From: an uncultured Bdellovibrionales bacterium
Lineage (GTDB): Bacteria > Patescibacteriota > Minisyncoccia > Moranbacterales > UBA1568
Length of the DNA stretch: 64,000 nucleotides
Direction: 5' to 3'
NCBI GenBank assembly: GCA_964420045.1
Contig: CAYQPQ010000002.1
Coordinates: 2,979-66,978 of the forward strand
Shown: positions 3,074 to 37,314 of the stretch, one piece after another
Layout: each line of letters begins with the position of its first letter
How positions within the stretch are numbered: position 1 is the stretch's first letter
Made by a program: the position numbers and the translations under genes
The notes under the pieces: model-generated
The model's database searches: none
What the model was told of the DNA's origin: nothing
What the model saw: only the letters and a program-made list of their open reading frames with translations

Positions 3074-3378
3074 GGTAACAGTGGTGCGGAGGCTTGCACA
3101 AAGGTGAGAAGTATGCTACACTCGCGCTAGTAGTAAGTTTTCTCTCAATGAGTTTCTGGCGGAATCCAGCACCTTTTTTGGCAAGAGTCCCCGTATCATG
3201 AGCGTGAAAGCGAAGCGGCTTCGCCTTTACACATACGATGATATCAAGGACTTTATCTGAAAAAGGTGCTGGACATTCTAAGGGCGAGATATTCGAGCTT
3301 TTAGGGAAAGCGGGAGCAGGTAGAGGAGAAAGAAGGTCGGCTTACTCGCGTTACTCTTACCTTAGAATCAGAATTTCT

Positions 3379-6986: not shown

Positions 6987-6996
6987 ACGAGGTTGC

Positions 6997-7198
6997 GCGC
7001 TCGTAGCTCAGTGGATACCTGCCTGCCGGTAGGCGGGGAGCGCCTGGTTGGTATCCAGAAGGTTGTTGCTTTATACACAATCGTAATTCATGTTTTTGCG
7101 CTCGTAGCTCAGTGGATACCTGCCTGCCGGTAGGCGGGGAGCGTCTGGTTGGTATCCAGAAGGTTGCTGTTTTATACACAATCGTAATTCATGTTTTT
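6997..7198 (+). repeat. Two tandem 101-bp repeats, each a truncated tRNA 5' half followed by a spacer. The fragment spans acceptor arm, D-arm and anticodon arm and carries a 20-nt insertion in the D-loop region
   Basis: Units begin at 6997 and 7098 (period 101) and the intact tRNA begins at 7199. Each unit reads GCGCTCGTAGCTCAGTGGATA+cctgcctgccggtaggcggg+GAGCG(C/T)CTGGTTGGTATCCAGAAGG and then diverges into ttatacacaatcgtaattcatgttttt. Neither unit has a T-arm or a 3' acceptor strand. Confidence 0.8.
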
Positions 7199-7271
7199 GC
7201 GCTCGTAGCTCAGTGGATAGAGCGTCTGGTTGCGGTCCAGAAGGTCGCAGGTTCGATTCCTGCCGAGCGCA
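7199..7271 (+). tRNA. tRNA, 73 nt, anticodon GCG (Arg); the isotype call is tentative
   Basis: The sequence is GCGCTCG-TA-GCTC-AGTGGATA-GAGC-G-TCTGG-TTGCGGT-CCAGA-AGGTC-GCAGG-TTCGATT-CCTGC-CGAGCGC-A, a canonical cloverleaf. Anticodon loop positions 34-36 are GCG. Confidence 0.8.
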
Positions 7272-7398
7272 CACTGACACAAAGTACAAGGATTTACACC
7301 TCTCCAAGAAAGATAAAAGACAGGCTCTTCGCCTGTCTTTACTATATTCATCGACAAAAACACGTGAAAGCTTCGCCATGCAGACGTCAAGACACTTC

Positions 7399-12726: not shown

Positions 12727-14274
12727 TCAAATCCTCCAAACTGACCCGACACGCGCATCCATCCGTGTACATACTCCAAGAAGAAGCCCGAGAAACATCA
12801 TGCCGAAGTGTCCGCTCCACAGCCAGTGGTCGAGCAAAAGCATGGGAAGAAGGGTACAGAAAATCGCCATCGAAAGAGCATTTCTTCTCTTCCATGCGGA
12901 GACAAACCAGCACAAGAGAGGCAGAGCAAACAACACGAATCCGACCGCGCCAAGCTCAGCAAATACCAGGACCGGCACCATATGCACCGGCTGAAACGCA
13001 CCGACAAATGTTCCAGCGCTCGGGAGACGCTCCCGCGTAAATGCCGTAAAATTTCCGCCGCCGACGCCAAGAACCAGGTGCTCGCGTATCACCGAGAGCG
13101 CCTGCTCAAAATAAAGCGCCCGATCTGAAAGCGACCCTTCACGCGCAAGTGTTCCTTCCGAAAAGCGACTCAATGCAATATCGCAAACAAGAAAGAAAGC
13201 AATAGAGAAAGAAAGAATCACAATAACTACGCTGCTCACCCATCCCATTCCGTCATTCCCGCGCCTGCCTGCCGGTAGGCATGGAAGGCGGGAATCCAGA
13301 TACCGCAAGACTCCAGACAAATTGAAACGGGATTTTCTCGGAAAATTATCGACACTATCAACCGTCGAAAGGCACGTTTCGGGAAAGTTTTCTCTTGGAA
13401 CATCCGAGTCTTGGTAAAGCGTAGATTCCCGCCTTCGCGGGAATGACGAGAAAAGAGAGTGCTTCAGACATCGAGTCAAACCCAGAAGCAGCACTCCCAT
13501 CCCCAAGAGAAGCCCCATCCACCCGCTTCGAGAAAAGGTAAACACAAGCGCAAAGCTCATCAGAGCCGTCATCCCCAAAAATACAGCTCTCGAAGAGACT
13601 CGCTTCGCCGTCACCGAAAGCCATACACCAAACAGCATGGCAACCGCCAGCGCGCCTCCGAGCACATTTGGGTGTTCAAACCCGCCATACGCACGGAGGA
13701 ATCGCCCGCCCTCGGTTTTCAAAACAAACGTCCCCCATCGCGCCGGATCATGCTCCGCGATGCCAAGCAGTGTCGAAGGTGCGATATATTGCCCTGCCCA
13801 CTGCGAAAGCGCGAGACTTGCTTGAATCGACATCGAGAGGAGAAAAATAGAGATCGTCTTCCGCATCGAAACGTCACTATATCGCGCAAGCACAAAGGCA
13901 AGCGTCATGAGAAATATTCTCCACGCAGAAATAAGTGCAAGACTCGCATCGATCGACCAGAGAGAAGAAAGAAGCGCCCACAGGAAAAATACGCCAAGCA
14001 GAAGCAACACGCGGTCACGAACAACAACTCGCCACACCTCCCGTTTCGTTCCAAAAACAAAAAACAGAGCACACAAAAGAAGTGCCACATCCGACACATA
14101 TGTCCCAAGCGTCGCATATTGCCATTTCTCCCCACTCACAAATACCTCCCGCACTATCCACACCGTCTGCCACGGAAGGAGAAAGACAAACGCATACCAC
14201 AAAAATTGTCGCCCCGATTTCAACATAGCGCCAGCATAGCACTCGCCCCACCCCTTCGTCATTCCTTCAAGCAA
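12727..14274 (-). CDS. O-antigen ligase / O-antigen polymerase family (Wzy_C) membrane protein, carrying an in-frame insertion of about 210 nt made of palindromic repeat elements
   Basis: Multiple transmembrane helices are present. The Wzy_C motif FTFSRSGWMGLLLG and the downstream periplasmic-loop motif ...GGGNF...FQPVHMVPVLVFAELG match the O-antigen ligase family. Between them a hydrophilic low-complexity stretch of about 70 aa is encoded by nt 13245-13455, the segment that holds the repeat elements. Confidence 0.7.
   Translation of the reverse strand: MLEGMTKGWGECYAGAMLKSGRQFLWYAFVFLLPWQTVWIVREVFVSGEKWQYATLGTYVSDVALLLCALFFVFGTKREVWRVVVRDRVLLLLGVFFLWALLSSLWSIDASLALISAWRIFLMTLAFVLARYSDVSMRKTISIFLLSMSIQASLALSQWAGQYIAPSTLLGIAEHDPARWGTFVLKTEGGRFLRAYGGFEHPNVLGGALAVAMLFGVWLSVTAKRVSSRAVFLGMTALMSFALVFTFSRSGWMGLLLGMGVLLLGLTRCLKHSLFSSFPRRRESTLYQDSDVPRENFPETCLSTVDSVDNFPRKSRFNLSGVLRYLDSRLPCLPAGRRGNDGMGWVSSVVIVILSFSIAFFLVCDIALSRFSEGTLAREGSLSDRALYFEQALSVIREHLVLGVGGGNFTAFTRERLPSAGTFVGAFQPVHMVPVLVFAELGAVGFVLFALPLLCWFVSAWKRRNALSMAIFCTLLPMLLLDHWLWSGHFGMMFLGLLLGVCTRMDARVGSVWRI
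13245..13455. mobile_element. MITE-like palindromic element inside the O-antigen ligase ORF. Two inverted copies of a 26-nt hairpin core gattcccgccttcgcgggaatgacga flank about 125 nt; the left copy carries a nested 17-21-nt element cctgcctgccggtaggc in its loop
   Basis: The segment 13251-13300 reads cgtcattcccgcg+cctgcctgccggtaggcatgg+aaggcgggaatccaga. The segment 13424-13449 reads gattcccgccttcgcgggaatgacga, the same core in opposite orientation. The identical 26-nt core recurs at 62276-62301 inside ileS. Confidence 0.7.
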
Positions 14275-24563: not shown

Positions 24564-27500
24564 TTACTGGCCAAAGATGGATTTAAGACTCGAAAACACA
24601 ATATCGAGCGCATTCTCGGTCGCTTTCGGCGCAATGGAGACAATATCAATCGATTCTCCGACATTCCCCGCCTTGTCTTTCGAAAGCACACGAAGATGAT
24701 ACACCTTCGACGGCGTTAATTTCGAGATCACCACCGTGTGATTCGATACCAACGAAGCGTCCTCTTGCGTCTTCTGCGGATAGACCGACCCCGTCCCCTC
24801 GCCATACTCCACCTGCGAAGTTGCCGACTCATCCGTTGTCCATGTAATCACCAATTGCGCCTCCGCCTCGCCCTGACTCCCGTCGGACGACTTCACGATA
24901 AGCCCCTCGACATTCGCATCAATGATTTGCGGAGCGCGCGTGTCGGTTGCCGTCGTGAACTGCAAGGCGTCGGATTTCGCTTCATTGCCAAAATTGTCTC
25001 TCCCTCGCACCACCAGCGAATAAGATGTTTGAGGCAGAAGATCCCGAAGCAATATGCGGTGTTCTCCCGCTACCATCTTCGCATCCACCTCATCCTTCGC
25101 ATCGCCCGCATTTCCCTCGGGGACATATGTGACAATGGAAGACGTTTCCGTATTGGTCTTCCATGAAATCAAAAGTACGGTCTGCGCCGTTCCCTTTACC
25201 TGCTGAATACGCACTTCTTCAATCTTTGGTCGCGGCAACGTTTCAAAGGAAAGCGTATTTCCTTCATATTCCTCTTCTTCACTATCAACGGTATTGATCT
25301 TGTAATAATATTTCGTGCCATCAAGCAGATCTTCGAGACTGGTCGTATAGGTTGTCTCGGACGTCGAGGTGGATATCTCCTTCACCAAACCAAACGCCTC
25401 CGTAAGTCCGTAGTATATTTTCACTTTGCTCGCCCCTCTTGCCGTAAATTCCAAAATAGCACTCGAAAGACCCGCGCTTTTCAAATTCGGATCGATAACC
25501 GTCGGAGCAGGATCAGTCTTAAACGACTTCTCACCCGAGAGTCCGGTATTACCGTCTTCGTCCGTCCAGCGCGCACGGTAGTGATAGGTTGTCCCCGGAG
25601 AAAGATTCGAGAGCTTGATCTCATGATCCGTCACCTGTTCGGAATTACTTGGTTCCTCGGAATAATAGTCTCCGGAACCCTTCCCATATTGCACCTTGCT
25701 GTCAGACGCCCGATCGGTCGACCACCCAATAGTCGCACTCTTGGTGGTAATGAGTGAAACCGACGGACCGGAAGCGAGCCCCGCCGCCTCGGTGTATTTC
25801 CCGGTCGGATACGCCGAAACAATTTCACTGAATGCGCCGCAGTTATTAACACTGTCACACGCGCGAATCTTATAGTAGTGCAGCGCCTGCGTCAGTCCCG
25901 TGTCCACAAAGGCGATACCGCTCGTCGAGGCAACTTTCGTATACGTCCCGCTCTCACTCAACGAGTGATAGATCTGATAGGAATCGACACCGGAACCGAT
26001 ATCCGCCGGCGCCTCCCATGACACCGCCAGCTTCCATGACTCGGTATTTTTCACTGACACATCCGCGATATCGGTATTCAGCGGAATGCCCGGCGCGCTT
26101 GTATCAGCGACAAACTCAACCGTTTCGTAGGCTCCATAATTTATAACGCCGCCCAAATCCTCCGGATTCTTCGCAACAACATAAAACGTGTTCGTGCCCT
26201 TTTGCGTCGCAAACGCCGATGCTGCAACCGACTCCACTCCGGAAGCGGTAAACGTGCAGGCATCTTCCGACGGCACAGCATTTACCGTATAGCAGTACGT
26301 GAGATCACTCGCATCTCCCGAAAAACTAAACGGCGGATCCCACGTGAACGCGAAAGAGTTCGCGGTGTTTGTTGCCGGTATCGCTTGGACATTTTGCGGC
26401 GCCGTCGGTCCGGCTCCTGCATAGTAAAACGAGGTACGCACATTGCTCGCGCTGACATTTCCCGCCACATCAATCGTACGCAAATAAAAGAAATTCTCTC
26501 CCGTCTGGTAGGCAGCGTCGGCGATATCAACTTGGAGAGCCGTCGTCGTTGACGACCAACCATCGCTCGCAACCGTCGCTGCAATTTGATACTGATATCC
26601 GGCAATCATCGAGTTCGTCGACGGATTGCCGTTTCCGTCCGTTCCCGCGCTCCACAAGAACGAAAAGTCATTGTCAGGAGAGTACACAGCTGGCGCTGCG
26701 GTTACACCAAGCGGATTCGTCGGAGCCGTCGAGTCGAGCCAATAGGAAAACGCCACAGGAAATGTCACACTTGTATTCTGTGCGACATCTTTCGCTTTCA
26801 CGATAAGATAGTATTTCTGTCCGCTTACCAAGGCATTCCCATCCGTATCGACAGTGGCTGTATAGCTGTTTCCTGCTTGGAAATCCCCCTGCGTTGTCGG
26901 CTCAGCACTCGCCGATGTGCCGAAATATACATAGTACCCCGCAACGCCCGACCCGCCGGTATCGGCTGCAGCGGACCACTCGAAATAGGGTGCTGAATAG
27001 GAATACCACGTACCCGTTGTCAAATCGGTTAATCCACCGCTTGCATTCTTGGCAGCGAGTGTCGGCGTACCGGACCATGTTGGCGCCGCAAGATCCGCTG
27101 TCGCTGTCAACGTAACCGAGTTGAGTCGAACTAACTCATTGCCATTCCCAAGAAGCACCGCTTGCCACAACAATCCGCCCGACCCTGCGGGAAATGTCGG
27201 GATATTCGTCGATATCGTCGAGGCGTCATTCGACTGCGCATATCCAGACGATGTTGCCCATGCGGAACCACTCCAATATTGCCATGTCGATCCGCCATCG
27301 CTCGAGAGGCGGTATGCGATATTTCCCGGCGCATCCTCATCCGCAACAAATGAGTCCCACTTCTTCACGCCGGAGGTGTGAACCGCCGAAGCGAGCGTCA
27401 CGGTTTCGTATCCGTTCGAATACGGAGTCGACTGAAACGACGTTCGCGCAACAGAACTGATTCGAAGCTCATCGAGAGAACCCTGAAAGAACCCTTCCGG

Positions 27501-30500
27501 TTTTCCGTATTCGCGACCGGCATATGTTGTCCCGATAAGAATATCGCTCGACGAATCCGCAATCGACATCGAAATAGAGCGCGAATTATTCAGCGTACCG
27601 TCAATATACACACTCATCGTGGAGCCATTATACGTTGCGGCGACATGGTGCCAATTTGTATTAAAAGAACTCGTTGAAGACTGCAAGAAAGCATTGTTGC
27701 CAAACGACCAAACAGCCGCATCGGCATTCGCTGTATTTCCGGTGCCAGCATAAAACTTTCCTTTGTAGGCACTGAACGCGCCGACTTCTTCAATCGTCGA
27801 CCCCCAACTTCCGTTCACGTTGTCACCACCGGCTTGCGCCCACAACGATCCAGCATATCGCCACACCTCTCCGTCTCCGGCTGTCGTGCCCAGTCCCGCA
27901 TAGAGCGCTCCGTTATAAACAGCGAGCGTTCGAACCCGCTCATAGGTTCCGCTTGACCAACTTCCACCAATATCGTCGCCTCCGATAAGCGTCCACGACG
28001 AGCCATCATATTTCCACACTTCCGCATCATCGGTCGATGTGCCAAGCCCCACATACAAAAACCCGGCGTACACAATCATACTGTCCACTTGTTCATAGGT
28101 ACTGTTCGCCCAGCTCGAATTGATACCGTCCCCACCGACACGACTCCACGATGGAGTACCGTCACAATTGGCACACTCCCACACCTCGGCGTCGCCGGCG
28201 CTCGACCCCAAGCCGGCATAGAGCTTCCCAGCATGCACCCCGAGCGTTGTCACTCGTTCAAAATTCGTCGTCCAGCCGGAATACAGACTGTCGCCGCCAA
28301 CCTTAGTCCACGTTGAACCATTCCATCGCCATACTTCCGCGTCATTCGCGCTATTGCCCAAACCGGCGTAGAGGAATCCGCCGTATGACGCCAAAGAATT
28401 TACCTCTTCAAAGCCCGTTGTCCAGCCGGAATTGAGACTGTCTCCGCCGATTTGTTCCCATGTCGAGCCGTTCCAATGCCACACTTCCGCATCATTCGAA
28501 CTCGACCCCAAGCCGGCATACAATTCTCCTCCGTGCCCGATAAGACTCGTCACCGTTTCATAGGTATTCGCATCCCAACTCCCATTTACACCCTGACCAC
28601 CGATAATGGTCCATGTCGTCCCATCAAACTGCCACACCATAGCATTGCCGATAGTGGCGACGCCCGTTCCCGCATACAAATAGTCACCCGTCACGTTTAA
28701 AACCTCAACACTTCGGAGCCCACGAAATCCCCAGCTGAAATTCACATAATCACCTCCGATAAGCGTCCATGACGATCCGTTCCACGCCCATTCCTGTGCC
28801 GAAACCGTCGAACTCGAAGTACTCACACCGGCATAGAGCGTCGATCCGGACACGGCAAGGGTACTTACAATAGTGTGTGTATTCGTAAAACTCCCATTCA
28901 CGCCGTCGCCGCCGATTTTAGTCCAGGTTGATCCGTCAAAACTCCATACCTCATTGTCTCCGGCCGTTGAGCCAAGACCGGCATAGAGTGTTGTCCCGTC
29001 ATTCACGATGGAGTACACCATTTCATAGCTCGAACTGTCCCAGCTTGAATTTACGGTGTCGCCGCCGATCTTGCTCCATGTCGAGCCGTTCCATTTCCAT
29101 ACTTCTGCGTCGCCTGCCGTCGAGCCGAGACCAACATAGAGATTCCCGCCAAAATAGGTCATCGAGTAGACATATTCGAACGTCGTATCCCAACTTGAGT
29201 TCAGACTGTCGCCGCCGATCTTGCTCCATGTCGAGCCGTTCCATTTCCAGACTTCGGAATCCCCGGCTGTCAAACCCAGCCCGGCATACACGTTCGTACC
29301 GTCATTCACCAAGCTATATACGCCTTCGTAATTTGTCGTCCAGCCGGAATTCAAACTATCACCGCCGATCTTGCTCCATGTCGAGCCGTTCCATTTCCAC
29401 ACTTCGGCATCATTCGCGCCCGTCCCGAGACCAGCGTAGAGCTCCCCGCCAACAAACGTCAGCGCATTCACCGCCTCAAACGTATTAATCTGCCAGCTTG
29501 AATTGAGCGCATCGCCGCCGATCTTGCTCCATGTCGAGCCGTTCCACTTCCACACCTCGGCATCGCCCGTTCCACTTCCCAGTCCGACATAGAGATTCGT
29601 GCCGTCATTCGCCATGACATACACCGCCTCAAACGTATTGATTGCCCAGCAATTGTTCAGTCCGTCTCCGCCGATCTGCGTCCATCTCGTTCCGTTCCAT
29701 TTCCACACTTCGGCGTCGCCCGTTCCGTTTCCCGTCCCGACATAGAGATTCCCATCGAGAACATTCGACGATTCGATAGTCGGATTTCCGTTCAAATCCC
29801 AACTTCCGTTAATATCGTTCCCCGCCTGCTGCGTCCATCCGGATGCCGAATCATTCGCCAGCTCATAGGTGAGCTTGCCCGTCTCATTGTCGTAGTACAA
29901 CTGATAGTCGCCCTTATCGACAATACCCTGCCGTTGAGAATGGCTTCCCGCCGAAAAAGCCGAGGAAAATTTCGTCCACGCTTCAATCGTATTCGCCTGG
30001 GACAAAGAATTTGCCGTCGAATCCGGAACCGACGCAAAAGCTGTCGTTCCGTTGAGCGAGAGCGCATTGTTTAGATTCCCCGAAACAAAGCTTCCTCCCG
30101 ATACCGTCGCGTGATTCGCATTCGACGAACTATCATTGGCCGTCGACCCGCTCGATTCGTCGAAATGATAGAGTGCTACCGTATCGCTATCGTCCGCATA
30201 GTTCTTCACCGAAAGCCGCGATTCCGTATTCGAACTATCGAGAGTCACTCCACTCGAAGCAACATAGTCACTCGGCGTTGCAAAATTCCATGCTTCACCA
30301 ATCTCCCCGTCAGCGAAAATACTGTGGATCCGACCCGAAAAGAACAGAAACGCGCCCGCCGCCACACAAGCGGACAAGACAGATAGACCGATGTATCTCG
30401 GCTTCAGACTCCAAAAAATTCGAGCTATCCGAAGCAGGAATCGCCCAAAGAAAACTCCGATCGATATGAGGAGTCGATAGAAATGGTTGTGTTTTTGCAT

Positions 30501-30509
30501 AATACCCAA
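24564..30509 (-). CDS. Giant surface protein of 1981 aa. It has an N-terminal membrane anchor, two LamG/ConA-like lectin domains, about 14 tandem beta-propeller-type repeats with the motif YAGLGS.AGDAEVWKWNGSTWSKIGGD, and C-terminal FN3/Ig-like domains
   Basis: The N-terminal transmembrane segment is LSACVAAGAFLFFSG. Repeats of about 50 aa are clear in the translation, and near-identical units of about 150 nt are visible at about 28900-29720, for example ccgccgatcttgctccatgtcgagccgttccatttcca four times. LamG-like segments are ...ALYHFDESSGSTANDSS... and ...NWHHVAATYNGSTMSVYIDGT...LDELRIS. Confidence 0.8.
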   Translation of the reverse strand: MGIMQKHNHFYRLLISIGVFFGRFLLRIARIFWSLKPRYIGLSVLSACVAAGAFLFFSGRIHSIFADGEIGEAWNFATPSDYVASSGVTLDSSNTESRLSVKNYADDSDTVALYHFDESSGSTANDSSSNANHATVSGGSFVSGNLNNALSLNGTTAFASVPDSTANSLSQANTIEAWTKFSSAFSAGSHSQRQGIVDKGDYQLYYDNETGKLTYELANDSASGWTQQAGNDINGSWDLNGNPTIESSNVLDGNLYVGTGNGTGDAEVWKWNGTRWTQIGGDGLNNCWAINTFEAVYVMANDGTNLYVGLGSGTGDAEVWKWNGSTWSKIGGDALNSSWQINTFEAVNALTFVGGELYAGLGTGANDAEVWKWNGSTWSKIGGDSLNSGWTTNYEGVYSLVNDGTNVYAGLGLTAGDSEVWKWNGSTWSKIGGDSLNSSWDTTFEYVYSMTYFGGNLYVGLGSTAGDAEVWKWNGSTWSKIGGDTVNSSWDSSSYEMVYSIVNDGTTLYAGLGSTAGDNEVWSFDGSTWTKIGGDGVNGSFTNTHTIVSTLAVSGSTLYAGVSTSSSTVSAQEWAWNGSSWTLIGGDYVNFSWGFRGLRSVEVLNVTGDYLYAGTGVATIGNAMVWQFDGTTWTIIGGQGVNGSWDANTYETVTSLIGHGGELYAGLGSSSNDAEVWHWNGSTWEQIGGDSLNSGWTTGFEEVNSLASYGGFLYAGLGNSANDAEVWRWNGSTWTKVGGDSLYSGWTTNFERVTTLGVHAGKLYAGLGSSAGDAEVWECANCDGTPSWSRVGGDGINSSWANSTYEQVDSMIVYAGFLYVGLGTSTDDAEVWKYDGSSWTLIGGDDIGGSWSSGTYERVRTLAVYNGALYAGLGTTAGDGEVWRYAGSLWAQAGGDNVNGSWGSTIEEVGAFSAYKGKFYAGTGNTANADAAVWSFGNNAFLQSSTSSFNTNWHHVAATYNGSTMSVYIDGTLNNSRSISMSIADSSSDILIGTTYAGREYGKPEGFFQGSLDELRISSVARTSFQSTPYSNGYETVTLASAVHTSGVKKWDSFVADEDAPGNIAYRLSSDGGSTWQYWSGSAWATSSGYAQSNDASTISTNIPTFPAGSGGLLWQAVLLGNGNELVRLNSVTLTATADLAAPTWSGTPTLAAKNASGGLTDLTTGTWYSYSAPYFEWSAAADTGGSGVAGYYVYFGTSASAEPTTQGDFQAGNSYTATVDTDGNALVSGQKYYLIVKAKDVAQNTSVTFPVAFSYWLDSTAPTNPLGVTAAPAVYSPDNDFSFLWSAGTDGNGNPSTNSMIAGYQYQIAATVASDGWSSTTTALQVDIADAAYQTGENFFYLRTIDVAGNVSASNVRTSFYYAGAGPTAPQNVQAIPATNTANSFAFTWDPPFSFSGDASDLTYCYTVNAVPSEDACTFTASGVESVAASAFATQKGTNTFYVVAKNPEDLGGVINYGAYETVEFVADTSAPGIPLNTDIADVSVKNTESWKLAVSWEAPADIGSGVDSYQIYHSLSESGTYTKVASTSGIAFVDTGLTQALHYYKIRACDSVNNCGAFSEIVSAYPTGKYTEAAGLASGPSVSLITTKSATIGWSTDRASDSKVQYGKGSGDYYSEEPSNSEQVTDHEIKLSNLSPGTTYHYRARWTDEDGNTGLSGEKSFKTDPAPTVIDPNLKSAGLSSAILEFTARGASKVKIYYGLTEAFGLVKEISTSTSETTYTTSLEDLLDGTKYYYKINTVDSEEEEYEGNTLSFETLPRPKIEEVRIQQVKGTAQTVLLISWKTNTETSSIVTYVPEGNAGDAKDEVDAKMVAGEHRILLRDLLPQTSYSLVVRGRDNFGNEAKSDALQFTTATDTRAPQIIDANVEGLIVKSSDGSQGEAEAQLVITWTTDESATSQVEYGEGTGSVYPQKTQEDASLVSNHTVVISKLTPSKVYHLRVLSKDKAGNVGESIDIVSIAPKATENALDIVFSSLKSIFGQ

Positions 30510-30645: not shown

Positions 30646-31089
30646 ATGCCAACTCTCGCCTACAACAAACGAGCACGATTCGACTACGAAATCCTCGAGA
30701 CACTAGAAGCGGGCATCTCCCTCCTCGGACACGAAGTCAAATCGATCAAAACCGGACACGTGAGTCTCCAGGGGAGTTTCGTAACCATTCACGGCGACGA
30801 TATCATGCTCACTAATGCCCTTATCCCCTTCTACCCCTTTGCGGGCGACCCCTCAAGCTATAATCCCACGCGTCCGCGCCGCCTCCTTATCAAAAAGAAC
30901 GAGTCCAAGCGACTTATCGGAAAAGTACGAACAAACGGCTTGACACTCATTCCGCTTCGGGTCTATACTAAGAGACACCTCGTAAAGGTCGAGTTTGCTT
31001 TGGCAAAGGGAAAGAAGGAATACGACAAGCGCGCCACTACCAAAAAGCGCGAAGCCAACCGCAAGATAGCCCGAGCCATGAAAAGCTAG
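30646..31089 (+). CDS. smpB: SsrA-binding protein SmpB
   Basis: NKRARFDYEILETLEAGISLLGHEVKS...LLIKKNE...KGKKEYDKR is conserved along the full length of SmpB. Confidence 0.92.
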   Translation: MPTLAYNKRARFDYEILETLEAGISLLGHEVKSIKTGHVSLQGSFVTIHGDDIMLTNALIPFYPFAGDPSSYNPTRPRRLLIKKNESKRLIGKVRTNGLTLIPLRVYTKRHLVKVEFALAKGKKEYDKRATTKKREANRKIARAMKS

Positions 31090-31131
31090 AATATCCCGCC
31101 CGCAAATACTCCTGATGTTCGGGATACGGGC

Positions 31132-31529
31132 GGGGTTGTCTAGACTCGACAGGATGCACTTTGAAAATACGCAAGCCGATTATGAAGGTGATATCGCTAA
31201 TCTCCCCTTCACGATGATATCTGCAAAATTCATCACAAAGGCAAAGCAAGCCTTCGCGCAAGCGTTCCAGCCTGCTTTCGCTTCCGCTCTCGCCTAATTT
31301 CGGCAAGAGCCATCGGACTCCCAACTCCCGATAGGGAATGTTCCGGTGTCATATCTTCGGGAAAGCCCCCTGCTCTCGCTTTATGGAGTAGCGGTCGCTT
31401 CTGCACATGAGGCACGCCGACCCGTTTTCGCACGCTTCTACGGTCCGGCGCACACCAAGCGCGCTATGCTTGTAGACTATTTTTGAAACTCATCACTGGA
31501 CATGGGTGCAATTCCCATCAACTCCACTA
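31132..31529 (+). ncRNA. ssrA: tmRNA (ssrA), one-piece. The tag ORF would be AKFITKAKQAFAQAFQPAFASALA (24 aa), with resume codon GCA at nt 31223 and stop TAA at 31295
   Basis: The 5' end GGGGTTGTCTAGACTCGACAGGAT parallels E. coli GGGGCUGAUUCUGGAUUCGACGGGAU. The 3' end GGACATGGG-TGCAATT-CCCAT-CAACTCCA forms the T-arm and the acceptor strand that pairs with the 5' GGGGTTG, keeping the G3:U wobble. The resume codon lies 91 nt from the 5' end, the tag ends ...ALA-stop, and the gene is immediately downstream of smpB. Confidence 0.8.
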
Positions 31530-31630
31530 GAAACAAACTTCAACCACCAATGCCCAACGTATACAACCGACGATTTCTGGAGGTGATATTCGTATCGGTT
31601 GTGCGTTGTGAGTTGTGAGTTGCCACGTAT

Positions 31631-32180
31631 CATGCGCAGACGTCGTTACCGAAGACCACAACCGAAAGTCGTCGAACTTCCCAAGGCGCGCGTCAATGAG
31701 CATATTCGAGTGCCATTTGTGTTTGTCGTCGACGCGGACGGGACCGTCACTGAAAACATGCCCATCGAACAAGCTATCGCTCGCGCCAAAGAGCAAGAGC
31801 TCGATCTCGTCGAAGTGTCTCCAAAAGCAACACCACCGGTGTGTAAGATCCTTGACTACGGAAAATACCTCTACGCCGAGGGAAAGAAAGAGCAGAAAGC
31901 AAAGAGCAAACAAAAGAAAGTCGAAACAAAAGGCATCCGCCTCCGTCTTCGAACCGACACGCATGACCTCAATTTCAAACGAGCGCAAGCGGAAAAATTC
32001 CTCACGCGAGGACACAAGGTCAAAATAGAGATCGTACTCCGCGGACGAGAAAAAGCGCTCCCGGAAAAGGCACGGGATGCACTGCGAGAATTTTTCAACA
32101 GCATAAAGGCGCCATTTGGCATCGAAGAAGATATCAAACGCTTCCCCAATGGTTTTCACATCATTATCGCCCCCAAATAA
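31631..32180 (+). CDS. infC: Translation initiation factor IF-3
   Basis: KARVNEHIRVPFVFVVDADG...LDLVEVSPKATPPVCKILDYGKYLYA...KGIRLR..D.HDL.FK aligns with IF-3 N- and C-domains. The start codon is uncertain, since IF-3 genes often use a non-ATG start. Confidence 0.85.
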
Positions 32181-32189
32181 GTAAACCCT

Positions 32190-32384
32190 ATGAAGCAAAA
32201 GACTCGGAAATCCGTTGCTAAGAAAGTTCAGGTTACCAAGAGTGGAAAGGTGATTCGACGCACGACCAAGCAAAATCACTACAATCTCCGCGAAACCAAA
32301 GAATCCAAACGAGCCAAGCGTCGGGATATCACCATGACCGGAAAAGACGCTAAGAATATCAAAGCCGCCCTCCCCTACGCTTAA
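32190..32384 (+). CDS. rpmI: 50S ribosomal protein L35
   Basis: MKQKTRKSVAKKVQVTKSGKVIRRTTKQNH is a typical L35 sequence; the protein is 64 aa and follows infC. Confidence 0.88.
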   Translation: MKQKTRKSVAKKVQVTKSGKVIRRTTKQNHYNLRETKESKRAKRRDITMTGKDAKNIKAALPYA

Positions 32385-32403
32385 GAAACTGATCGATTTG
32401 AAT

Positions 32404-32520
32404 GTTTCTCCGGAAAAAATTCTTTTTTGCAGCTTTCCTTGCCCGAATTGCTACGCAAAACGTTGCGGGCAGGCGTACGAAGTGTAAGACAAGCGAAAAA
32501 AGAATTTTTTCCGGAGAAAC
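32404..32520. repeat. Perfect 25-bp inverted repeat flanking a structured 67-nt loop in the rpmI-rplT intergenic region (a MITE-like or RNase III-type stem-loop)
   Basis: The left arm gtttctccggaaaaaattctttttt (32404-32428) is an exact reverse complement of the right arm aaaaaagaattttttccggagaaac (32496-32520). The loop holds a second hairpin gcccg...cgggc. Confidence 0.8.
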
Positions 32521-32584
32521 AGGCATCTTTAGACAAATCTCAACAGATCACACTGCAAGCAAATAACTTCTAGAGAGAACCATT

Positions 32585-32929
32585 ATGCCAAGAGTCAAGC
32601 GCGGCGTCACTGCCAATAAACGAAGAAAAAATGTCCTCAAGATGGCGGAGGGTTTCCGATGGCGCCGAAAAACGAACTATCGCGCCGCCAAAGAGGCCAT
32701 CATGAAAGCGGGCAAATATGCCTATCGAGACCGCCGCGCCAAAAAGCGATCATTCCGCAGTCTCTGGATCGTCCGCCTCAATAATGCTCTGCGCGAGCAC
32801 GGACTCACCTATGCTCGGTTCATCGATATCGAAAAAAAGAAGAATATCGAACTCGACCGAAAAGTGCTCTCCGAACTCGCCGTACAACACCCCGATATCT
32901 TCAAGACATTCGTCGCTTCCGTCAAATAG
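32585..32929 (+). CDS. rplT: 50S ribosomal protein L20
   Basis: MPRVKRGVTANKRRKNVLKMAEGFRWRR...YRDRRAKKRSFRSLWIVRLNNA is highly conserved L20. Confidence 0.92.
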   Translation: MPRVKRGVTANKRRKNVLKMAEGFRWRRKTNYRAAKEAIMKAGKYAYRDRRAKKRSFRSLWIVRLNNALREHGLTYARFIDIEKKKNIELDRKVLSELAVQHPDIFKTFVASVK

Positions 32930-33042
32930 GAGAAATTTCACAAAGACTTTGTCTTGCGACTTCAAAAAGACTTCATCGAAAAACACCCGGAATTCGGGTG
33001 TTTTTCTTGTATCTTTCCTGCCGCTGTCCCAATTCACCTGAA

Positions 33043-33486
33043 TTACTTTCGCAAGCTCCCCTTCTGATGTTGCCAATGTCGGAGCATTCCCAACGAAAAA
33101 ACCAGAGCAAGAAAAATTCCGAAAGCATCGATAACAATGTCGGAAACTCTACCCTGTCGCCCGGTCACAAAGAGCTGATGAGCCTCATCAGATATAGCGA
33201 AAGGCAATGAAAGCAAGAGCATGCCCGCAGCTGCTATATGAGAGTTCCGAGGAAACCCATGATCGAAGAGTCGAAAAGAAAGCACTCCGAGAATAAAATA
33301 CTCGGCAACATGCGCACCTTTTCGCAGAAGCAAATAGGGCAAGGAAATATGTTGTCCAGCAACACCGAGACTTGGCTGGTCGGAAAGTAAGAAGATCACC
33401 ATCATCCACACCAAAACAGGAACCGCGTAACAGTAGAAAGACATGCTGAACCGCGCCAATCGGTCTAATGAAAAAACGTTTTTCAT
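33043..33486 (-). CDS. VanZ-like family membrane protein
   Basis: Four transmembrane helices are present, with a conserved ISDEAHQLFVTGRQGRVSDIVIDAFGIFLALVFS segment typical of VanZ. Confidence 0.65.
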   Translation of the reverse strand: MKNVFSLDRLARFSMSFYCYAVPVLVWMMVIFLLSDQPSLGVAGQHISLPYLLLRKGAHVAEYFILGVLSFRLFDHGFPRNSHIAAAGMLLLSLPFAISDEAHQLFVTGRQGRVSDIVIDAFGIFLALVFSLGMLRHWQHQKGSLRK

Positions 33487-36618: not shown

Positions 36619-37314
36619 TCAAAAAAACCGATGGTACACGTTTCCGACATCAGAAATCCATTTCGCCACACTTTCTGGAGAATGTCCTTCACAGGACGAG
36701 CCGCACTTCCAAACAATGAGTCGCTCCGGCGAGTCCAAATGTTTCTCATGAACCAGCTCGGAGAGTCGATTGCCTACCGTCTCAATCGCTTCTTCCGGAC
36801 TCGCGAAACACGCATAGCCCATACCGGTGCCGCGGCTTCCCGTTCCCTTATAGCCCCAATAGTTGTAGCAGTCAATGCCGTCCTTCGTCGGAGCATGCTC
36901 TCCCCAGGAGCTTTCCTTTCGAGCGATGCTCACCAAAAACGCCGCCGTCTCCCGATCGCGCTTCGCCAAGAAAGGCGCCATCGCTTCCATCGGTTCGCCC
37001 TGGAGCGTTGAGGCAAGCAATGTGCGAAACCGAAACTCCTCCTCCGTCTCCCCTTCTTTCGGAGACATTTCCGCCTCGCAAGAGGGGGCAAGAGTCTCCT
37101 GACTCGCATCACTCAGAGCATTCTCCGATCGGAATTCCAGCAGATCGTCCTGCAAGTGAATATCCGACCCTTCTGCCGAAGCCATACCCCCATTCCAAAC
37201 AAAGAACACGAAAAAGAGGCTAATAAAGCCAAAAAATCTGCAAGCATACCACATCCCCCGCCCGCAACGCTGTGCGTAGCAGTGCGGGCGGGCCCGACGT
37301 AAAGGAATATCCAT
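36619..37314 (-). CDS. Membrane-anchored protein and paralog of the next gene; the C-terminal domain weakly resembles a glucosaminidase or peptidoglycan-hydrolase domain
   Basis: ...AAFLVSIARKESSWGEHAPTKDGIDCYNYWGYKG... compares with the glucosaminidase-domain pattern ESgWG...NlFGiK. The C-terminal region WKCGSSCEGH is conserved in both paralogs. Confidence 0.35.
   Translation of the reverse strand: MDIPLRRARPHCYAQRCGRGMWYACRFFGFISLFFVFFVWNGGMASAEGSDIHLQDDLLEFRSENALSDASQETLAPSCEAEMSPKEGETEEEFRFRTLLASTLQGEPMEAMAPFLAKRDRETAAFLVSIARKESSWGEHAPTKDGIDCYNYWGYKGTGSRGTGMGYACFASPEEAIETVGNRLSELVHEKHLDSPERLIVWKCGSSCEGHSPESVAKWISDVGNVYHRFF

What the first reader, a model, noticed from the sequence alone, without database searches (positions are those of the whole stretch)
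32404..32520. Perfect 25-bp inverted repeat between rpmI and rplT
A 25-bp stem with no mismatch flanks a 67-nt loop, which itself contains a gcccg...cgggc hairpin. It lies in the 200-nt gap inside the infC-rpmI-rplT operon. A stem this long and perfect is unusual for a simple attenuator. It could be an RNase III processing site that uncouples rplT from upstream genes, an L20 autoregulatory mimic of its 23S rRNA site, or a 117-bp MITE inserted into the operon. Other palindromic mobile elements in this window support the MITE reading.
Basis: seen in the sequence. Interest (0 to 1): 0.5.

Follow-up and report, generated by a model that had tools for sequence, protein, structure and literature searches.

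The report
Strain-variable nested palindrome in ribosomal operon
The perfect hairpin between the genes for ribosomal proteins L35 and L20 is real, but close relatives do without it: it is a nested palindrome built around a small GC-rich repeat found in many uncultivated bacteria, not a conserved regulator.

Summary
It is a perfect 26-bp (not 25-bp) inverted repeat, 32403-32428 / 32496-32521, with a 67-nt loop. It lies in the 200-nt rpmI-rplT spacer of a Candidatus Moraniibacteriota (CPR) genome, and chance does not explain it.

Public contigs of the same species-level population (infC+rpmI 96-99% identical) carry four spacer alleles:
- **L** (the window, 200 nt).
- **B** (184 nt): same outer stem with one mismatch, but a different GC-rich palindrome at the centre.
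- **S** (98 nt, nine contigs): lacks the left arm, the loop and the first 10 nt of the right arm. Most likely a deletion between quasi-direct repeats.
- **A** (49 nt): no hairpin.

The hairpin is therefore dispensable and unstable. It has no Rfam match and no U-tract.

Its centre (32437-32473) is a diverged copy of a ~36-nt GC-rich hairpin, consensus CCCGCCCGCATCGCTACGCGAAGCGTTGCGGGCGGG. Two more copies lie in the window. The motif also occurs in more than 120 metagenome contigs and in other CPR phyla, often just after ~80-aa GIY-YIG nuclease genes.

Best reading: a REP/MITE-like nested selfish palindrome. Once transcribed it is a plausible RNase III substrate or exonuclease barrier, as a side effect. 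The L20-operator reading is rejected. The MITE reading is only partly supported: there is no target-site duplication and no second copy of the arms.

The parts
32403..32428 (+). Left arm of the perfect 26-bp inverted repeat (outer stem, A/T-rich, itself nearly palindromic around TTCCGGAA)
   Evidence: identical in allele B
32496..32521 (+). Right arm of the outer stem. Its last 16 nt (32506-32521; up to 20 nt, 32502-32521, given the 4-nt junction ambiguity) survive in the S allele. Allele B has one T>C mismatch and an extra A.
32429..32436 (+). Middle layer, 5' side (GCAGCTTT); shared with allele B apart from 1 substitution
32437..32473 (+). Core: diverged copy of the widespread 'family 1' GC-rich hairpin (CCTTGCCCGAATTGCTACGCAAAACGTTGCGGGCAGG). 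In allele B this position holds a 20-nt 'family 2' palindrome.
   Evidence: (covariance model, 49.1 bits, E=9e-9)
32474..32495 (+). Middle layer, 3' side (CGTACGAAGTGTAAGACAAGCG); shared with allele B apart from 1 substitution
32404..32505 (+). 102-nt segment missing from the S allele. Placement is ambiguous by 4 nt because GAAT occurs at both 32400-32403 and 32502-32505.
32190..32384 (+). rpmI (L35), upstream gene
   Evidence: PF01632
32585..32929 (+). rplT (L20), downstream gene
   Evidence: PF00453
32978..33006 (+). Terminator-like hairpin downstream of rplT (13-bp stem plus T-run), the likely end of the operon. The inverted-repeat hairpin has no such T tail.
37256..37293 (-). Second family-1 hairpin copy in the window (CCCGCCCGCACTGCTACGCACAGCGTTGCGGGCGGG), between two paralogous genes
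   Evidence: 55.9 bits
31094..31135 (-). Related GC-rich hairpin between the smpB stop codon and the 5' GGGG of tmRNA. Other CPR genomes carry a GIY-YIG gene plus a family-1 hairpin at this position.
   Evidence: (23.5 bits, E=0.006)

Best explanation
The 119-nt hairpin (32403-32521) is a three-layer nested palindrome of selfish, REP/MITE-like origin that sits in a tolerant intergenic spacer. It is not a conserved regulator of rplT.

The three layers are:
- an A/T-rich, perfectly paired 26-bp outer stem specific to this species-level lineage;
- an imperfect middle segment;
- a GC-rich core that belongs to a multi-copy family of ~36-nt hairpins. This family is found in many uncultivated bacteria and some viral contigs, often directly downstream of ~80-aa GIY-YIG nuclease genes.

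Shown here: the hairpin varies within one population (alleles L, B, S and A). The core differs between L (family 1) and B (family 2) while the outer stem is shared. Most sampled strains carry a 102-nt deletion that removes the left arm, the loop and 10 nt of the right arm.

Inferred: the deletion arose by slippage or recombination between the quasi-direct repeats GAATGTTTCTCCGGA and GAATTTTTT-CCGGA. These repeats exist because each arm is itself nearly palindromic. The small GC-rich palindromes are the mobile or turning-over part, and they tend to land at hairpin tips and next to tRNA/tmRNA genes.

Inferred consequence: because the element is co-transcribed within infC-rpmI-rplT, it folds into a hairpin of about -53 kcal/mol. 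That hairpin could be cut by RNase III or could block 3'-5' exonucleases, as shown for Correia elements and REP. This would change the rpmI:rplT ratio as a side effect rather than as a selected function.
For: Four alleles exist in contigs whose infC+rpmI is 96.3-98.7% identical to the window. S occurs in 9 contigs from different samples, B in 3, A in 3 and L only in the window. B shares the left arm exactly, and the right arm with 1 mismatch, but has a different core. This shows that the stem predates the L/B split and that S is derived.

No homologous structure occurs in the closest species, L001-L004. No Rfam family matches and there is no terminator tail.

The core motif has 3 copies in the window. 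It also occurs in other CPR loci, in viral contigs and in more than 120 metagenome contigs with 31-66% GC. A GIY-YIG ORF (PF01541) ends 14-43 nt from the motif in about a dozen motif-selected loci. In loci chosen without reference to the motif, a family-1-like hairpin follows 3 of 5 GIY-YIG genes. A more diverged one follows the GIY-YIG gene in L223.

Nested copy-in-copy insertions are seen. Ten of 110 copies have an exact flanking inverted repeat of at least 10 nt, against 0.5% at random sites. Family 2 has 3 copies in the window.

Strong hairpins are no more frequent in rpmI-rplT spacers (14/42) than in other co-directional CPR gaps (15/69).
Against: - The 26-nt arms and the middle layer have no second copy in 64 kb or in IMG/VR. 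Mobility of the whole 119-nt unit is therefore not shown.
- No clean empty site and no target-site duplication were found.
- The origin of the outer stem is unexplained.
- L and B differ by only about 2% inside the hairpin but by about 22% in the 63 nt after it. This could reflect purifying selection on the hairpin rather than a recombination mosaic.
- The link between the core hairpin and GIY-YIG genes is adjacency only; no nuclease activity or transposition was tested.
- The whole source genome could not be searched.
Confidence: 0.6

Rival explanations
1. Selected mRNA element. The hairpin is kept because RNase III cleavage or exonuclease blocking uncouples rplT from infC-rpmI, or stabilises the upstream message, and so tunes the L35:L20 ratio.
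For: It has 26 bp of perfect duplex inside a polycistronic spacer, -52.7 kcal/mol for the hairpin alone. The outer stem is retained in the sister lineage B with only 1 mismatch, while the neighbouring 63 nt diverged by about 22%. One third of long rpmI-rplT spacers in Patescibacteria fold significantly. Correia elements bind RNase III and are cleaved by it or protected from it (PMC2649163).
Against: Nine conspecific contigs lack half of the hairpin and three lack it entirely. B's mismatch is not compensated. Hairpin frequency in this spacer is not higher than in other CPR intergenic gaps, 33% against 22%. Sequences in other genomes are unrelated.
Confidence: 0.15
2. Classical MITE. The whole 119-bp unit, with 26-bp terminal inverted repeats, was inserted by a transposase acting in trans and has further copies elsewhere in the genome.
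For: It has perfect 26-bp terminal repeats ending TG...CA, is small, has no coding capacity and is intergenic. It shows presence/absence-type variation among strains. The genome carries other small palindromic repeats.
Against: No second copy of the arms occurs within 3 mismatches in 64 kb or in IMG/VR. The flanks are GAA|...|GGC, with no direct repeat. The short allele keeps part of the right arm, so it is a deletion scar and not an empty site. The core differs between alleles while the arms stay the same, which is not expected of a unit that transposes whole.
Confidence: 0.15
3. L20 translational operator. The hairpin mimics the L20 binding site on 23S rRNA and lets L20 repress its own synthesis.
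For: The position is immediately upstream of rplT, and L20 autoregulation of this operon is established in E. coli and Bacillus (general knowledge).
Against: No L20_leader or any other Rfam hit appears, even at E<=10. Known operators lie upstream of rpmI or infC, not between rpmI and rplT. The hairpin is absent or truncated in strains with an identical L20 protein. A perfect 26-bp helix lacks the irregular junction or pseudoknot typical of L20 sites.
Confidence: 0.03
4. Intrinsic terminator or attenuator inside the operon, or an assembly artefact.
For: It is a very stable hairpin.
Against: No T-run follows the stem, and the scan does not call it. A terminator-like hairpin follows rplT at 32978-33006. 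Three independent assemblies reproduce the outer stem.
Confidence: 0.03

Closest known systems
Correia repeat-enclosed elements (CREE) of Neisseria
   Same: CREE are about 100-155 bp with ~26-bp terminal inverted repeats around a core. They are intergenic, co-transcribed, vary between strains and form RNA hairpins that bind RNase III and are cleaved by it or protected from it (PMC2649163, PMC2229807).
   Different: CREE occur in hundreds of near-identical copies with a TA target duplication. Here the arms are single-copy in all the sequence searched, there is no duplication, and only the small core is multi-copy.
REP/BIME elements of Enterobacteria and Pseudomonas (with RAYT transposases)
   Same: The core is a ~36-nt imperfect GC-rich palindrome with a conserved asymmetry (a T.T mismatch). 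It is mostly extragenic and multi-copy, sometimes nested or clustered, and often adjacent to a small nuclease gene. REPs in operon spacers act as mRNA stabilisers (general knowledge).
   Different: The neighbouring gene is a GIY-YIG (UPF0213/YhbQ-like) nuclease, not a Y1 HUH RAYT. The same motif is shared across very different genomes (31-66% GC), whereas REP families are species-specific.
Rickettsia palindromic elements and mobile GC clusters of yeast mitochondria
   Same: These are small palindromes that invade intergenic DNA, RNA genes and sometimes ORFs. GC clusters often lie at the 3' ends of endonuclease ORFs (general knowledge). Here the motif is 36 nt (12 codons). It occurs inside tRNA-like fragments and in at least one long ORF.
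   Different: No sequence relationship. Host range and mechanism are unknown.
L20 leader (Rfam RF00558) and the E. coli rpmI operator
   Same: Same operon; a structured RNA close to rplT.
   Different: No model match, different position, not conserved, and a perfect helix rather than an rRNA-mimicking junction.

Membership tests
L20 leader / L20 operator | Matches the covariance model or rRNA-mimic structure | tested here: not met
   cmscan at the gathering threshold and at E<=10 over 31400-33100 found no L20_leader hit
L20 leader / L20 operator | Conserved at this position in relatives that keep the same L20 | tested here: not met
   Strains with an identical L20 protein carry the half-deleted S allele. 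The closest species have unrelated spacers.
L20 leader / L20 operator | Binds L20 and represses translation | not testable with these tools
   Needs binding and reporter assays
MITE | Terminal inverted repeats, small size, non-coding | tested here: met
   26-bp perfect arms, 119 nt, only spurious ORFs
MITE | Target-site duplication flanking the element | tested here: not met
   The flanks are ...TTTGAA | element | GGCATC..., with no direct repeat
MITE | Multiple copies of the same unit in the genome | tested here: inconclusive
   No second copy of the arms in the 64-kb window or in IMG/VR. The rest of the genome was not available.
MITE | Clean empty site in a relative | tested here: not met
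   The S allele keeps 16 nt (up to 20 nt, given the 4-nt junction ambiguity) of the right arm, so it is a deletion scar. The A allele is a recombinant with a divergent rplT.
REP-like palindromic repeat (core only) | Short imperfect GC-rich palindrome present in many copies, mostly extragenic | tested here: met
   3 copies in the window and more than 120 metagenome contigs. 42% of copies lie inside open frames of at least 150 codons, against 72% of random sites.
REP-like palindromic repeat (core only) | Associated RAYT (Y1 HUH) transposase | tested here: not met
   The neighbouring ORFs are GIY-YIG (PF01541), closest to UPF0213 structures 1zg2 and 1ywl
Intrinsic terminator | GC-rich stem followed by a U-tract | tested here: not met
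   Not called by the scan. The sequence after the stem is GGCATCTTTAGAC.
RNase III substrate | About 20 bp or more of uninterrupted dsRNA | tested here: met
   26 perfect pairs in the predicted fold
RNase III substrate | Actual cleavage; RNase III present in the organism | not testable with these tools
   No rnc gene lies in the 64-kb window (uninformative), and no transcript data are available

The most novel reading that the evidence does not exclude
The core hairpin (consensus CCCGCCCGCATCGCTACGCGAAGCGTTGCGGGCGGG), together with the ~80-aa GIY-YIG genes it follows, may be an undescribed class of very small mobile elements. They would resemble REP elements but be tied to a GIY-YIG nuclease instead of a RAYT. 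They would be shared across CPR phyla, soil bacteria and viral contigs. Copies sit beside tRNA-Val, tmRNA and other tRNA genes, inside hairpin tips and inside one another. Under this reading they seed nested palindromes such as the rpmI-rplT hairpin.
Probability: 0.3. Interest if true: 0.7.

Novelty: new member of a known kind. Interest (0 to 1): 0.4.

Why it matters
For the operon, the result is negative but useful. A striking perfect hairpin inside infC-rpmI-rplT is not the long-sought L20 control element of CPR bacteria. It is an unstable passenger that most strains have already half-lost. It gives a natural allelic series (L, B, S, A) on which the effect of a long intercistronic hairpin on ribosomal-protein stoichiometry could be measured.

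The wider lead is the small GC-rich hairpin at its centre. The same ~36-nt sequence occurs in genomes from 31 to 66% GC, next to mini GIY-YIG nuclease genes and tRNA/tmRNA genes, and nested within itself. If these hairpins are mobilised by the nuclease, they would be a new route by which reduced CPR genomes acquire and turn over structured intergenic DNA.

Tried and rejected
- **Rfam:** the gathering-threshold and E<=10 scans gave only chance miRNA-like hits on the hairpin.
- **Further copies of the arms or middle layer:** none in the window or in IMG/VR.
- **BLAST of the core consensus:** no match against PLSDB plasmids or INPHARED phages.
- **Literature:** full-text searches for the motif sequence, for GIY-YIG with CPR, tmRNA or COG2827/YhbQ found nothing relevant.
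- **Insertion model:** I first read the short allele as an empty site and considered an insertion that copies 20 nt of target flank in inverted orientation, by snap-back synthesis or P-nucleotide-like hairpin opening. I dropped this when allele B showed that the full stem exists in a sister lineage, and when the arms' own near-palindromy explained the deletion end-points.
- **Flank-pairing metrics:** gapless outward extension missed bulged stems. Counting flank-flank pairs in the predicted fold did not separate real sites from controls with a pasted core. I replaced both with an exact inverted-repeat test.
- **Hairpins specific to this spacer:** no significant excess over other CPR intergenic gaps.
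- **Alleles lacking the 37256 copy:** a look-up with a shorter start codon found nothing on record, and a wider-flank look-up returned fewer contigs.
- **RNase III gene:** This is uninformative for a 64-kb piece.
- **tRNA fragments:** ARAGORN and Rfam did not call the tRNA-like fragments that carry the motif. They called only the intact neighbouring tRNA-Val.

Full report
**Observation.** The window holds a perfect inverted repeat with 26-nt arms at 32403-32428 and 32496-32521 (TGTTTCTCCGGAAAAAATTCTTTTTT and its complement), separated by 67 nt. It lies in the 200-nt gap between rpmI (32190-32384) and rplT (32585-32929), downstream of infC. smpB (30646-31089) and tmRNA (31132-31529) lie just upstream. 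No shuffle of the window produced the 26-mer within 3 mismatches. It is the only perfect inverted repeat of at least 16 nt within 400 nt in the 64 kb. The spacer folds at -64.2 kcal/mol, z = -5.7.

**Organism and relatives.** The L20 protein finds its best matches in Candidatus Moraniibacteriota MAGs of the CPR/Patescibacteria, with at most 90% identity. Across 79 Patescibacteria loci, the rpmI-rplT spacer ranges from 0 to 219 nt and its sequence is not conserved. The four closest species (L001-L004) have spacers of 65-201 nt that cannot be aligned to the window. No Rfam family matches the region at the gathering threshold or at E<=10, so there is no L20_leader hit. The hairpin has no T-tail, and a terminator-like hairpin follows rplT at 32978-33006.

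**Allelic series within one population.** Exact-protein look-ups for L20 and L35 returned contigs from many independent samples. Their infC+rpmI is 96.3-98.7% identical to the window. They carry four spacer alleles:
- L, the window, is 200 nt.
- B (L211-L213, three assemblies) is 184 nt. It has an identical left arm, a right arm with one T>C change and a seventh A, and the same middle layer apart from 2 substitutions. Its centre is different: CCTACCTACCGGCAGGCAGG instead of the 37-nt core of L. Its rplT is 95.5-95.9% identical.
- S is 98 nt and occurs in nine contigs from nine samples (L081-L086, L210, L216, L217). It equals L minus 102 nt (32404-32505). It keeps TTTTTCCGGAGAAACA, or GAATTTTTTCCGGAGAAACA if the shared GAAT is assigned to the right-hand copy. 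Its rplT is 99.1-99.7% identical.
- A (L214, L215, L219) is 49 nt and has no hairpin. Its rplT is only about 82.6% identical and its downstream genes differ. A recombination breakpoint therefore lies at the rpmI stop codon.

**Direction of change.** I first read S as an empty site. Allele B argues against that. The complete stem and middle layer exist in a lineage that is an outgroup to L and S on the rplT side, so the hairpin is older than the L/S split.

The end-points of the S deletion also have a simple explanation. Each arm is nearly palindromic around TTCCGGAA. As a result, GAA plus the left arm (GAATGTTTCTCCGGAAAA) and the start of the right arm (GAATTTTTT-CCGGAGAAA) form a ~20-nt imperfect direct repeat (15 of 20). 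The exact 4-nt GAAT lies at the junction. Slippage or recombination between these repeats removes exactly what S lacks. I put about 85% on deletion.

Contig L087 starts exactly at the junction. This is what a de Bruijn graph branch between L and S in one sample would give, but it is only a hint. Whichever direction is right, strains with the same L20 live without the hairpin.

**The centre of the hairpin.** The 22-mer TGCTACGCAnAnCGTTGCGGGC occurs a second time in the window, at 37260-37281 on the minus strand. A near-identical hairpin occurs in a Nealsonbacteria MAG (L023). A pattern scan found it in 2 IMG/VR contigs.

The consensus is CCCGCCCGCATCGCTACGCGAAGCGTTGCGGGCGGG, with a conserved T.T mismatch and an embedded GCGAAGC. 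Part of this invariance was imposed by the search pattern. The 5' half was unconstrained and is still conserved.

A covariance model (R1) finds three sites in the window: 37256-37293 (55.9 bits), 32437-32474 (49.1 bits) and 31094-31135 (23.5 bits). The last lies between the smpB stop codon and the tmRNA 5' end. R1 also finds copies in CPR loci L016, L023, L025 (just after rplT) and L049, with weaker matches in L054 and L061.

The B-allele core belongs to a second palindrome family, CCTGCCTGCCGGCAGGCAGG. This family has three copies in the window, at 7018, 7119 and 13264. Both alleles therefore carry a multi-copy GC-rich palindrome at the tip of the same outer stem, but from different families.

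**Link to GIY-YIG genes.** In about a dozen motif-bearing loci, an ~80-aa ORF ends 14-43 nt from the hairpin. These ORFs match Pfam GIY-YIG (PF01541) and the UPF0213 structures 1zg2 and 1ywl. Two arrangements recur:
- tRNA-Val, then the GIY-YIG gene, then the hairpin, then a duplicated 3' part of tRNA-Val (L107, L171, and the L090 group).
- In CPR: smpB, then the GIY-YIG gene, then the hairpin, then tmRNA (L023, L099, L133, L016).

A sample chosen without reference to the motif gives the same picture. Of the five GIY-YIG genes that happen to lie in the L20-selected loci, three are followed by a family-1 hairpin. The background is about one hit per 80 kb. A protein-first search of IMG/VR gave one locus (L223) with a GIY-YIG gene, then a diverged hairpin, then a tRNA 5' end.

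Further evidence of mobility:
- Copy-in-copy insertions occur in L127, L128, L152, L187, L193, L198 and L202.
- Inverted pairs 2-3.6 kb apart occur in both viral contigs.
- Exact flanking inverted repeats of at least 10 nt occur in 10 of 110 copies, against 0.5% at random sites.
- Copies are depleted from long open frames, 42% against 72%.

The motif was absent from PLSDB plasmids and INPHARED phages. It was also absent from the searchable literature. That is not proof of novelty.

**Is a hairpin at this position special?** Fourteen of 42 rpmI-rplT spacers of at least 45 nt in Patescibacteria fold with z<-3. One is a 27-bp perfect outer stem around a 22-bp inner stem in a Gribaldobacteria MAG (L070). 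However, 15 of 69 other co-directional intergenic gaps in the same loci do so as well. Hairpins are common in CPR spacers generally. There is no sign of position-specific selection.

**Mechanism.** Most likely (0.6) the feature is a nested selfish palindrome. A lineage-specific A/T-rich outer stem of unknown origin carries, at its tip, a turning-over GC-rich REP-like repeat. The whole is unstable and is being lost by deletion.

Because it is co-transcribed within infC-rpmI-rplT, it would form 26 bp of perfect dsRNA. By analogy with Correia elements (PMC2649163) and REP, this would be a substrate for RNase III or a barrier to exonucleases. That step is inferred, not shown.

The rivals are a selected processing or stabiliser hairpin (0.15), a classical whole-unit MITE (0.15), an L20 operator (0.03), and a terminator or artefact (0.03).

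One caveat remains. L and B differ by about 2% inside the hairpin and about 22% just after it. This may reflect a recombination mosaic, as seen for allele A, or constraint on the hairpin. The data cannot separate the two.

**Verdict.** The feature is a new member of a known kind, intergenic palindromic repeats. The more interesting lead is the widespread GIY-YIG-linked core hairpin, which appears undescribed.

Noticed in passing
window 37256-37293 (-); L023 1624-1661; L088, L089, L090-L209: A ~36-nt GC-rich hairpin (CCCGCCCGCATCGCTACGCGAAGCGTTGCGGGCGGG, with a conserved T.T mismatch) occurs in more than 120 metagenome contigs of 31-66% GC, in several CPR phyla and in 2 IMG/VR contigs. It is often nested inside itself or inside locus-specific longer hairpins.
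   Followed up: partly
L107 38-500; L171; L090/L103/L122/L123; L023 1338-1661; L099; L133; L016 1456-1782; L223 144-470: Genes for ~80-aa GIY-YIG nucleases (PF01541, UPF0213-like) end 14-43 nt before the hairpin. The cassettes sit between tRNA-Val and a duplicated tRNA-Val 3' fragment, between smpB and tmRNA, or just upstream of a tRNA. The hairpin's 3' arm runs into the acceptor 5' strand.
   Followed up: partly
window 31094-31135: A GC-rich hairpin (CCCGCCCGCAAATACTCCTGATGTTCGGGATACGGGCGGGG) fills the 42-nt smpB-tmRNA spacer and overlaps the tmRNA 5' GGGG. It is conserved in alleles L210-L214. Other CPR genomes have a GIY-YIG gene inserted at this spot.
   Followed up: partly
window 6996-7197, upstream of tRNA-Arg 7199-7272: Two tandem ~101-nt degenerate copies of the 5' two-thirds of tRNA-Arg. 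Each has the 20-nt palindrome CCTGCCTGCCGGTAGGCGGG inserted in the D-loop and an altered anticodon loop. ARAGORN calls only the intact gene.
   Followed up: no
window 13250-13300: A third copy of the family-2 palindrome (CCTGCCTGCCGGTAGGCATG), nested inside an outer ATTCCCGC/GCGGGAAT stem. It lies within a long minus-strand open frame.
   Followed up: no
window 3165-3273: A second long imperfect hairpin: 26-nt arms, 81% complementary, 57-nt loop, with a central GCGAAGCGGCTTCGC palindrome. The layered architecture resembles the rpmI-rplT element.
   Followed up: no
L214, L215, L219 versus window 32385 onward: Contigs 97-99% identical to the window through smpB-tmRNA-infC-rpmI switch at the rpmI stop codon to an rplT only about 82.6% identical, followed by different downstream genes. 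The spacer is a recombination or rearrangement breakpoint in this population.
   Followed up: partly
L070 2851-3000; L045; L071; L042, L053, L076; L001 and L004: Other Patescibacteria carry unrelated strong hairpins in the same spacer. L070 has a 27-bp perfect A/T-rich outer stem around a 22-bp inner stem (z=-18). L042, L053 and L076 have hairpins built from short tandem repeats. L001 and L004 share GCTGACAGCCGAAC tandem repeats.
   Followed up: partly
L088 793-830 and 2804-2841; L089 2309-2346 and 5934-5971: In both viral contigs the hairpin occurs as an inverted pair 2-3.6 kb apart. In L088 the two copies lie near the two ends of a 770-aa ParB-like ORF and read through it in frame.
   Followed up: no
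window 24564-30509 (-): A 1981-aa ORF with many repeats of a ...GDAEVWKWNGSTWSKIGGD... unit, followed by fibronectin-like repeats. It is typical of large CPR surface proteins and unrelated to the finding.
   Followed up: no
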